In this document: positions 1 to 24 of the stretch, piece after piece | Numbering within the stretch: the first letter of the stretch is position 1 | Layout of the letters: the number at the start of each line of letters is the position of its first letter | Virus record (IMG/VR): IMGVR_UViG_2869970738_000009 | DNA: 33,980 bases | Direction: 5' to 3' (one strand) | DNA from: a virus | Taxonomy: Duplodnaviria > Heunggongvirae > Uroviricota > Caudoviricetes | Made by a program: the position numbers and the translations under genes | The notes under the pieces: generated by a model | The model's input: only the letters and a program-made list of their open reading frames with translations | What the model was told of the DNA's origin: nothing | The model's database searches: none

Positions 1-24
1 TCACGGAAAGTCATACTGCCTTAC
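1..24 (-). repeat. IS66-family-type terminal inverted repeat; outer tip at 24, element body lies left of the window
   Basis: Minus strand reads GTAAGGCAGTATGACTTTCCGTGA; the identical 24-mer is on the plus strand at 30041-30064 on the tnpC side of the IS66-family element. GTAA...TTAC termini are typical of IS66-family IRs. Confidence 0.55.

What the first reader, a model, noticed from the sequence alone, without database searches (positions are those of the whole stretch)
1..24. Identical 24-bp IS66-type terminus at both ends of the window, in inverted orientation
The first 24 bases are the exact reverse complement of 30041-30064, which is the terminus on the tnpC side of the IS66-family element at the right end. 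So a second IS66-type end sits inside mlrA at the left edge with its body outside the window, and the prophage remnant is bracketed by inverted IS66 termini. That arrangement allows inversion or deletion by homologous recombination and may explain why the prophage stops after the lysis genes with no terminase or structural module.
Basis: seen in the sequence. Interest (0 to 1): 0.5.

Follow-up and report, generated by a model that had tools for sequence, protein, structure and literature searches.

The report
Nested insertion sequences bracketing a flipped prophage
The identical 24 bases at both ends of this region are the outer edge of one known mobile element (ISSso6) lodged in the tip of another (an IS66-family element), and recombination between the two inverted copies has already flipped the 30-kb prophage remnant in this Shigella boydii genome, which is ordinary for Shigella.

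Summary
Window 1-24 is the exact reverse complement of 30041-30064, and no chance match is expected. mlrA homology starts only at base 25.

The label "IS66 terminus" is only partly right. Only GTAAG comes from the IS66 right inverted repeat (IRR). The other 19 bases are the left end of ISSso6, a 1520-bp IS1111-type (IS110-family) element inserted inside that IRR at its target GTAAG^CG.

The window comes from Shigella boydii ATCC BAA-1247 (CP026795.1). There the left match runs 1,679 bp: GTAAG, then ISSso6, then a 156-bp ancient IS66 remnant that sits beside yoeF/yeeX in E. coli K-12. It is not a second full IS66.

The right composite has unmatched flanks: ATACGATA in the phage, and the mlrA stop codon/yohO on the far side, inverted relative to the mlrA 5' part. 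Sister IS66 copies have perfect 8-bp duplications.

Other S. boydii genomes join the same two segment ends to different partners, and one has the segment in the opposite orientation. So recombination between these repeats has already inverted the segment and cut the prophage at its nu1 site.

This is a known kind of event in Shigella, so interest is low. ISSso6 targeting the IS66 repeat tip is a tidy side result.

The parts
1..24 (-). Outer boundary of the left composite. Read on the minus strand: GTAAG (bases 24-20), the tip of an IS66-family right inverted repeat (IRR), followed by the first 19 bases of ISSso6 (19-1). Bases 3-1 form the TGA stop of the truncated mlrA frame.
25..594 (-). 5' part of mlrA (yehV). 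It matches MlrA profile positions 29-201 of 243. The C-terminal ~42 residues are replaced by VRQYDFP, encoded by the IS end. Bases 25-32 (ATTGAGCG) are the flank of the IS66 tip.
30033..30040 (+). ATACGATA, the phage-side copy of the 8-bp target duplication made when an IS66 element inserted between the DUF3950 (ylcI/ynfO-like) gene and nu1.
   Evidence: The second copy is found next to the left inverted repeat (IRL) of a different IS66 in L008, L010 and L046.
30041..30045 (+). GTAAG, the tip of the IS66-family IRR, cut off from the rest of the repeat by ISSso6.
   Evidence: comparison with the intact IRR GTAAGCGTCAACGGAGCACC in L027 and in K-12 (L028).
30046..31565 (+). ISSso6, a 1,520-bp IS1111-type IS110-family element. 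By the IS1111 convention of 7-bp left and 3-bp right extensions it is 30044-31563, because AG occurs at both junctions. Transposase 30171-31298. Subterminal inverted repeats 30050-30063 and 31548-31561. 267-bp non-coding region 31299-31565.
   Evidence: NF033542, 274 bits; the visible ~100 N-terminal residues are identical to the ISfinder ISSso6 transposase.
31566..33980 (-). The rest of the IS66-family element: remainder of the IRR from 31566; tnpC 31591-33183; tnpB 33214-33564 with a TAG stop at 33292-33294 (90 instead of 116 aa); tnpA 33561-33980. The element continues 86 bp past the window to its IRL at window-equivalent 34066. The whole composite is 4,026 bp, of which 2,506 bp is IS66.

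Best explanation
Shown:
- The two 24-mers are the outer edges of two inverted copies of the same nested structure. In each, ISSso6 (an IS1111-type, DEDD-transposase element) sits inside the right inverted repeat of an IS66-family element, at its target GTAAG^CG and without a target duplication.
- The right copy is a complete but disabled IS66: its repeat is split and tnpB carries a stop codon.
- The left copy, outside the window, is the ancient 156-bp IS66 remnant found beside yoeF/yeeX in E. coli, also occupied by ISSso6.
- The shared repeat is 1,679 bp. Its 1,520-bp ISSso6 part differs at one base.
- The two pieces of mlrA lie at opposite ends of the 30-kb segment and are inverted relative to each other.
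- The target duplications are re-assorted.
- The prophage late genes were cut off at the IS66 insertion next to nu1.
- Sister genomes join the same two segment ends to different partner copies.

Inferred:
- IS66 copies first inserted into mlrA (flank ATTGAGCG) and into the prophage between the DUF3950 gene and nu1 (duplication ATACGATA).
- ISSso6 then invaded their repeats and the yoeF remnant.
- Homologous recombination between these inverted copies then swapped their flanks and flipped the segment carrying the mlrA 5' part, the prophage early region and the lysis genes.
- RecA dependence, and the order of events. The simplest route is one inversion between the yoeF remnant and the phage copy, followed by a flip of the 30-kb segment.
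For: Source and extension:
- The window is identical to CP026795.1 over window 1-13199 and 19755-33980. That record is S. boydii ATCC BAA-1247.
- The left match extends 1,679 bp with 9 mismatches, 8 of them in the last 156 bp.

Nesting:
- IS66 homology to an ISSso6-free copy covers only window 31564-34066.
- Empty versus filled sites: K-12 against FDAARGOS_943 at the yoeF remnant; a primase gene in strain VL40 against a 100% contiguous empty site.
- All 14 distinct ISSso6 sites have GTAAG on the left, and 13 have CG on the right.

Families:
- NCBIfam hits to IS110, IS66 TnpC, TnpB and TnpA.

Recombination signature:
- The tnpA-side repeat of the right composite abuts ...GAATCATTA, the mlrA stop codon, followed by yohO-yehW-...-bglX. 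This block is inverted relative to the mlrA 5' part.
- Ten other IS66 copies, with or without ISSso6, have perfect 8-bp duplications. The two tips bracketing the window (CGCTCAAT, ATACGATA) have no partner on their own element.
- ATACGATA and CAGGAAAC are crosswise on two inverted IS66 copies around a 709-bp nu1 fragment in L008, L010 and L046.
- The reconstructed phage empty site aligns without gaps to uninterrupted phages.

Variation between genomes:
- The DUF3950 end is joined to nu1, yohO, pepT/pot, the yoeF remnant or an ABC-transporter locus in different S. boydii genomes.
- In CP026814.1 the yoeF remnant adjoins DUF3950 instead of mlrA, so the segment is flipped.
Against: - The reciprocal junctions predicted for this genome were not retrieved: yeeW|GTAAG-ISSso6-IS66|nu1 fragment, and the missing 129 bp of mlrA.
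- 129 bp of mlrA (L002 5872-6000) is absent between the two mlrA junctions. The original mlrA insertion was therefore not a simple insertion with an 8-bp duplication, and an extra event is needed: an adjacent deletion, or two insertions followed by recombination.
- The older assembly CP001063.1 (CDC 3083-94) may be the same strain as ATCC BAA-1247 (this equivalence is from memory). It joins the DUF3950 end to nu1 rather than yohO. One assembly could therefore be misjoined across the 4-kb repeat.
- RecA dependence and current flipping in culture are untested.
Confidence: 0.85

Rival explanations
1. One reading: a second complete IS66 copy sits in mlrA as a simple insertion. The arrangement merely permits future inversion or deletion.
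For: The 24-mer begins with the canonical IS66 GTAAG. It lies inside mlrA.
Against: Only 156 bp of IS66 sequence follows ISSso6 on the left. That stretch is the diverged remnant found next to yoeF in K-12, followed by yoeF-yeeX-yeeA-sbmC-dacD. The flanks do not match. The mlrA stop codon/yohO lies beyond the other copy.
Confidence: 0.03
2. The junctions in CP026795.1 are assembly misjoins across multi-copy 1.7-4 kb repeats, so the apparent inversion is not real in the cell.
For: S. boydii carries many near-identical IS66/ISSso6 copies. CP001063.1, possibly the same strain, differs at the DUF3950-side junction and in the position of the rare T496 allele.
Against: The mlrA5'|ISSso6|yoeF junction recurs in at least 9 independent assemblies. 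Several complete genomes show different but internally consistent partner combinations. The crosswise duplications in L008, L010 and L046 are the classical recombination signature. The source arrangement can be derived from a K-12-like order by two simple inversions.
Confidence: 0.07
3. The flanks were exchanged by the ISSso6 DEDD transposase and its guide RNA acting at the element boundaries, in the manner of Piv or bridge recombinases, rather than by homologous recombination.
For: IS110/IS1111 enzymes are RNA-guided recombinases that can be programmed to invert DNA (PMC11208160, PMC11187229). The ISSso6 transposase gene is intact. The 3' non-coding region folds stably (z = -2.67) and contains GTAAG, GGCAG and ATATCAGCGT, which match the target and end sequences.
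Against: The rare T496 allele inside ISSso6 is on the remnant-linked copy in 6 genomes but on the IS66-linked copy in the source. Exchange therefore happened inside the element, or by gene conversion, and not only at its boundary. Exchanges also occur between IS66 copies on the tnpA side, around the nu1 fragment between two left repeats, where ISSso6 has no site. No experiment was possible.
Confidence: 0.04
4. The 24-mer is a prophage attachment-site core, or the arms of a composite transposon that moves the 30-kb segment.
For: It lies at the mlrA (yehV) prophage integration locus and brackets the prophage remnant.
Against: Attachment cores are direct repeats, and these are inverted. The same sequence borders ISSso6 at unrelated loci. 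The integrase end of the prophage is at the mlrA 5' end (window ~594-615), not at base 24. The left copy has no IS66 genes and no left repeat, and both right repeats are split, so IS66 transposase has no pair of intact ends to act on.
Confidence: 0.01

Closest known systems
IS4321/IS5075, IS1111-family elements that insert at one position and orientation in the 38-bp terminal repeats of Tn21-family transposons (Partridge & Hall 2003, cited in PMC11187229)
   Same: An IS1111-type element with subterminal inverted repeats, a downstream non-coding region and no target duplication, lodged at a fixed position inside the terminal inverted repeat of another transposable element and splitting that repeat.
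   Different: The host element is an IS66-family IS and the target is GTAAG^CG. ISSso6 also uses chance GTAAGCG sites outside IS66: a SopA pseudogene, a primase gene and the nhaA-mokC spacer. I found no description of the ISSso6 target in the searchable literature.
IS66-family insertion sequences (ISEc23, IS682, ISEc8, IS679 type)
   Same: tnpA-tnpB-tnpC organisation, terminal repeats beginning GTAAGCG, and 8-bp target duplications at sibling copies.
   Different: This copy is about 87% identical to an ISEc23-like copy. Its right repeat is split by ISSso6, tnpB has a stop codon, and its two flanks come from different insertion sites.
IS-mediated chromosomal inversions in Shigella (PMC8072062; S. 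flexneri comparisons, PMC1550401)
   Same: Inverted copies of an expanded IS act as portable homology. The breakpoints lie in the IS copies, and strains of one species differ in orientation and junction partners.
   Different: Here the repeat is a nested pair, and the most similar part is the IS110-family guest rather than the IS66 host. One partner is an ancient IS66 remnant that only became a long repeat after ISSso6 landed in it.
Lambdoid prophages integrated at mlrA/yehV, the site used by the Stx1 phages CP-933V/Sp15 in E. coli O157:H7 (from memory)
   Same: Integrase and xis lie next to the mlrA 5' end, with the lambdoid gene order through Q, lysis genes, the DUF3950 gene and then nu1.
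   Different: This is a remnant peppered with IS1, IS2 and IS3-family copies, with part of int and xis lost. It is split at nu1, and no stx genes were seen in the window.

Membership tests
IS66 family (right-hand element) | Three genes: tnpA, tnpB and tnpC (DDE transposase) | tested here: met
   NCBIfam NF033517 (448 bits), NF033819 and NF047595. Pfam LZ_Tnp_IS66, zf-IS66 and DDE_Tnp_IS66 on the same genes in L012.
IS66 family (right-hand element) | Terminal inverted repeats beginning GTAAGCG | tested here: met
   Left repeat GTAAGCGTAAACTGACC, 86 bp beyond the window. Right repeat GTAAG|ISSso6|CGTCAACGGAGCACC, identical to the intact repeats in L027 and K-12 once ISSso6 is removed.
IS66 family (right-hand element) | 8-bp direct target duplication flanking the element | tested here: not met
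   The flanks are ATACGATA and TAATGATT for this copy. Ten sibling copies have perfect 8-bp duplications, so this copy is a recombinant and not a non-member.
IS1111 group of the IS110 family (ISSso6) | DEDD (RuvC-like) transposase with a Transposase_20 C-terminal domain | tested here: met
   NF033542, 274 bits against a cutoff of 140. PF01548 + PF02371. The visible ~100 N-terminal residues are identical to the ISfinder ISSso6 sequence.
IS1111 group of the IS110 family (ISSso6) | Subterminal inverted repeats of 11-13 bp with short asymmetric terminal extensions (7 bp left, 3 bp right) | tested here: met
   TATGACTTTCCGTG at 30050-30063 pairs with 31548-31561. With a 13-bp repeat and the 2-bp AG ambiguity, the extensions can be read as 7 (AGGCAGT) and 3 (ATC) (convention from PMC11187229).
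IS1111 group of the IS110 family (ISSso6) | Sequence-specific target and no target duplication | tested here: met
   GTAAG^CG at 13 of 14 distinct sites. Two pairs of empty and filled sites show no gain or loss of bases.
IS1111 group of the IS110 family (ISSso6) | Longer non-coding region downstream of tnp that encodes a seekRNA matching the target | tested here: inconclusive
   267 bp lie downstream against 125 bp upstream. The region folds with z = -2.67 and contains GTAAG, GGCAG and ATATCAGCGT. There is no Rfam match and no RNA data.
Composite (compound) transposon | Two IS copies, each with usable ends, and at least one working transposase able to act on the outer or inner pair of ends | tested here: not met
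   The left copy lacks tnpA, tnpB, tnpC and the left repeat. Both right repeats are split by ISSso6.
Prophage attachment sites | Direct repeats of the core at both prophage ends, next to the integrase | tested here: not met
   The repeats are inverted. The sequence belongs to IS elements. The integrase end of the prophage is at the mlrA 5' end, near window 594-615.

The most novel reading that the evidence does not exclude
The ISSso6 RNA-guided DEDD recombinase, a relative of the Piv invertase and of bridge recombinases, itself catalyses flipping of chromosomal segments that lie between inverted ISSso6 copies. The mlrA-prophage segment would then be a natural RNA-guided invertible element rather than a by-product of homologous recombination. 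A milder and much more likely reading (about 0.8) is that ISSso6 specialises on the conserved GTAAGCG tip of IS66-family repeats. It would disable the host IS while creating long near-identical repeats, even at ancient IS66 relics, that then drive Shigella genome rearrangement.
Probability: 0.04. Interest if true: 0.7.

Novelty: already known. Interest (0 to 1): 0.25.

Why it matters
This explains a confusing locus. mlrA, the activator of curli regulation, is broken twice. The prophage appears to end after its lysis genes because IS-mediated recombination cut it at nu1, not because the late genes were never there: a sister strain still has terminase, portal and head genes beyond the IS pair. 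It also shows that what an annotator would call an IS66 end is mostly ISSso6. That matters for IS mapping tools, for breakpoint calling and for assembling Shigella genomes. Finally, ISSso6 turns short IS66 relics into long recombination substrates. None of this changes current understanding of IS-driven genome plasticity in Shigella.

Tried and rejected
- An exact-match scan of one-genome-per-species contigs for the mlrA/IS junction found nothing, because S. boydii is not represented there.
- Rfam found no family in 29900-31800.
- I tried to reach the predicted reciprocal junction through the nu1 fragment. P0007 gave only the sister strain CP026872.1.
- I tested whether the tnpB stop codon marks one traceable IS66 copy. 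It does not: the allele is in at least 10 loci.
- ISEc11 was considered as the identity of the nested element and rejected. It is 1,443 bp with target GTGAAAATACTG.
- I considered direct insertion of ISSso6 into mlrA without IS66 and rejected it. Intact mlrA has no GTAAG at that point.
- Attachment site, contig-end overlap and composite transposon were rejected (see rival explanations).
- Literature searches by accession number found nothing.
- I found no published statement of the ISSso6 target.

Full report
**Observation**

Window 1-24 (TCACGGAAAGTCATACTGCCTTAC) is the exact reverse complement of 30041-30064. These are the only two matches in the window with up to three mismatches, and none was found in 100 shuffles.

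The 24 bases do not belong to mlrA. In 5,423 E. coli genomes the alignment to window 1-330 always starts at base 25.

The length of 24 is an effect of where the window was cut. The window starts at the TGA stop (reverse complement of 1-3) of the truncated mlrA frame, whose last seven codons (VRQYDFP) are read from the inserted DNA. It ends at the ATG of tnpA.

**Source and leftward extension**

Exact-protein look-ups placed the window in CP026795.1, which matches window 1-13199 and 19755-33980 exactly. That record is Shigella boydii ATCC BAA-1247.

To the left of base 1 the similarity to the right-hand element continues for 1,679 bp with 9 mismatches, then stops.

**What the 24-mer really is**

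The right-hand element runs from 30041 to 86 bp past the window, 4,026 bp in total.

I compared it with an IS66-family copy that has no insert (L027). That copy has the right inverted repeat (IRR) GTAAGCGTCAACGGAGCACC and the duplication AACCATCA. Against it, IS66 homology covers only window 31564-34066.

A 1,520-bp element lies between GTAAG (30041-30045) and CGTCAACGG (31566 onward). It encodes an IS110-family DEDD transposase (NF033542, 274 bits). The visible ~100 N-terminal residues are identical to the ISfinder ISSso6 protein.

The element shows the hallmarks of the IS1111 group as defined in PMC11187229:
- It has 14-bp subterminal inverted repeats at 30050-30063 and 31548-31561.
- Its longer non-coding region lies downstream of the transposase gene (267 bp).
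- It makes no target duplication.

So only 5 of the 24 bases (3 under the 7-bp/3-bp extension convention, because AG occurs at both junctions) are IS66 repeat. The rest is the ISSso6 left end.

**ISSso6 target**

Two comparisons of empty and filled sites fix the insertion point.
- K-12 has GGATTAAAGTAAGCGTCAACGG. FDAARGOS_943 has ISSso6 between GTAAG and CGTCAACGG at the same place.
- A primase gene interrupted in strain VL40 is 100% contiguous in FDAARGOS_943 once ISSso6 is removed.

Across 14 distinct sites, the left flank is always GTAAG and the right flank is CG in 13. Most sites are IS66 right repeats. Three are chance GTAAGCG sites: a SopA pseudogene, the primase gene and the nhaA-mokC spacer.

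In the E. coli collection the ISSso6 right end occurs in only 24 genomes at full length, 10 of them joined to this IS66 repeat.

This parallels IS4321/IS5075 in Tn21-family repeats. I found no published statement of the ISSso6 target.

The 3' non-coding region folds more stably than shuffles (z = -2.67). It contains GTAAG, GGCAG and ATATCAGCGT, which match the target and the element ends. This fits a seekRNA but is only suggestive. Rfam has no match.

**The left copy is not a second IS66**

After ISSso6, the left copy keeps only 156 bp of IS66: the remainder of the repeat plus 129 bp of the tnpC 3' end. Then come yoeF, yeeX (tmaR), yeeA, sbmC and dacD.

That same 156-bp remnant, without ISSso6, sits between the CP4-44 gene yeeW and yoeF in K-12. 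It is present in thousands of E. coli genomes.

Of the 9 mismatches between the left and right copies, 8 lie in these 156 bp and 1 lies in ISSso6. The effective repeat is therefore ISSso6.

GTAAG next to mlrA cannot come from mlrA, which has no such sequence there. An IS66 must therefore once have inserted at ATTGAGCG in mlrA.

**Evidence that recombination has already happened**

1. Beyond the tnpA-side repeat of the right composite lie the mlrA stop codon and yohO-yehW-yehX-yehY-osmF-bglX. This block is inverted relative to the mlrA 5' part at the left of the window.

2. Ten other IS66 copies, with or without ISSso6, have perfect 8-bp duplications. The right composite has ATACGATA on one side and TAATGATT on the other, and the left tip has CGCTCAAT with no partner.

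3. The phage insertion site is proven. The window's phage flank, joined to the sequence after the second ATACGATA in L008, aligns without gaps to uninterrupted phages L013 and L015.

4. In L008, L010 and L046 the duplications ATACGATA and CAGGAAAC sit crosswise on two inverted IS66 copies around a 709-bp nu1 fragment. This is the classical mark of inversion between inverted IS copies.

5. Junction partners differ between S. boydii genomes:
   - The DUF3950 end is joined to nu1 in CP026762.1, CP001063.1 and CP026872.1.
   - It is joined to yohO in the source genome.
   - It is joined to the pepT/pot region in CP049281.1 and UAUR01.
   - It is joined to the yoeF remnant in CP026814.1.
   - It is joined to an ABC-transporter locus in CP026866.1.
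   - In CP026814.1 the mlrA end is joined to the pepT/pot copy, so the segment is flipped relative to the yoeF side.

6. CP026872.1 still has terminase large subunit, portal and head genes beyond the IS pair. The late region was therefore cut off by these events and not simply absent.

**A simple route to the source arrangement (inference)**

Start from a K-12-like order with the prophage at mlrA. One inversion between the ISSso6-occupied yoeF remnant and the phage IS66 copy places the remnant next to DUF3950. That junction is seen in CP026814.1. A second inversion, between the remnant and the mlrA IS66 copy, flips the 30-kb segment and leaves the IS66 left repeat at yohO. That is the arrangement in CP026795.1.

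The rare ISSso6 allele T496 is on the mlrA-side copy in six genomes but on the DUF3950-side copy in the source. This fits crossovers or gene conversion inside the element rather than exchange at its boundary.

**Open points**

- 129 bp of mlrA between the two mlrA junctions is missing, so an adjacent deletion or a second insertion is needed.
- The reciprocal junctions in this genome could not be fetched.
- CP001063.1 is strain CDC 3083-94. From memory, that is the same strain as ATCC BAA-1247. It differs at the DUF3950 junction, so a misjoin in one assembly cannot be excluded. The mlrA-yoeF junction, however, recurs in at least nine assemblies.

**Verdict**

It needs correcting on four points:
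- The repeat is mostly ISSso6, not IS66.
- The left copy is an ancient remnant, not a full IS66.
- Inverted repeats can invert but not delete the intervening DNA.
- The rearrangement has already occurred.

IS-driven rearrangement is well documented in Shigella, and IS66 and IS110 are known lineage-specific expansions there (PMC8072062). The finding is therefore ordinary. The ISSso6 preference for the IS66 repeat tip is a small, possibly undescribed addition.

Noticed in passing
window 1137-1909 and 10478-11250: Two 100% identical inverted IS1 copies (773 nt) bracket 8.6 kb of the prophage early region, which makes another potentially invertible segment. The left IS1 sits in the integrase gene. 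Relative to E. coli references, about 1.2 kb (the integrase 5' part and xis) is missing there.
   Followed up: partly
window 3415-4571 and 5386-6634: An inverted pair of an IS3-family element (1,088 + 70 nt identical; the left copy lacks 91 bp) lies within the Ead/Ea22-like genes. Several sister genomes (L018, L019, L021) carry only one IS3-family copy in this Ead/Ea22 stretch. An IS2 lies at about 9070-10343.
   Followed up: partly
window 33292-33294 (tnpB): A TAG stop shortens IS66 TnpB to 90 of 116 aa. The same allele is found in at least 10 IS66 loci in S. boydii chromosomes and plasmids, at least six of them with intact 8-bp duplications. The short TnpB is therefore either compatible with transposition or spread by gene conversion.
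   Followed up: partly
window 31453-31462; L029 about 3946-4051: The ISSso6 3' non-coding region contains ATATCAGCGT, an internal copy of the junction between its right end and its target. In the yoeF copy of E. coli FDAARGOS_943 the last ~106 bp of ISSso6 are tandemly duplicated, starting exactly after this mimic.
   Followed up: partly
L028 2998-3156 (E. coli K-12) and L004 14700-14855: A 156-bp IS66 relic (intact right repeat plus the tnpC 3' end) lies between the CP4-44 gene yeeW and yoeF. It is present in thousands of E. coli genomes and annotated only as a partial 'transposase domain-containing protein'. It is a landing site for ISSso6 in EIEC-like E. coli and in S. boydii.
   Followed up: yes
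L002 5872-6000 compared with window 25 and L012 5889: 129 bp of the mlrA 3' part is absent between the IS66 left-repeat junction (at the mlrA stop codon) and the junction at window 25. The mlrA insertion is therefore not a simple insertion with an 8-bp duplication.
   Followed up: partly
ISSso6 position 496 from the tip (window 30536): The rare allele T is on the DUF3950-side copy in the source genome, but on the mlrA-side copy in six other genomes including CP001063.1. This suggests repeated flipping or gene conversion between the two copies.
   Followed up: no
L010/L020 (CP001063.1) compared with L012/L004 (CP026795.1): These two assemblies may be of the same strain (CDC 3083-94 = ATCC BAA-1247, an equivalence from memory). 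They differ in the partner of the DUF3950-side copy (nu1 versus yohO) and in IS content inside the segment (28.6 versus 30.0 kb between the tips). The cause is either divergence between stocks or an assembly error.
   Followed up: no
window 1 and 33980: The window boundaries coincide with gene boundaries: the stop codon of truncated mlrA and the start codon of tnpA. This is why exactly 24 bases of the left repeat are visible.
   Followed up: yes
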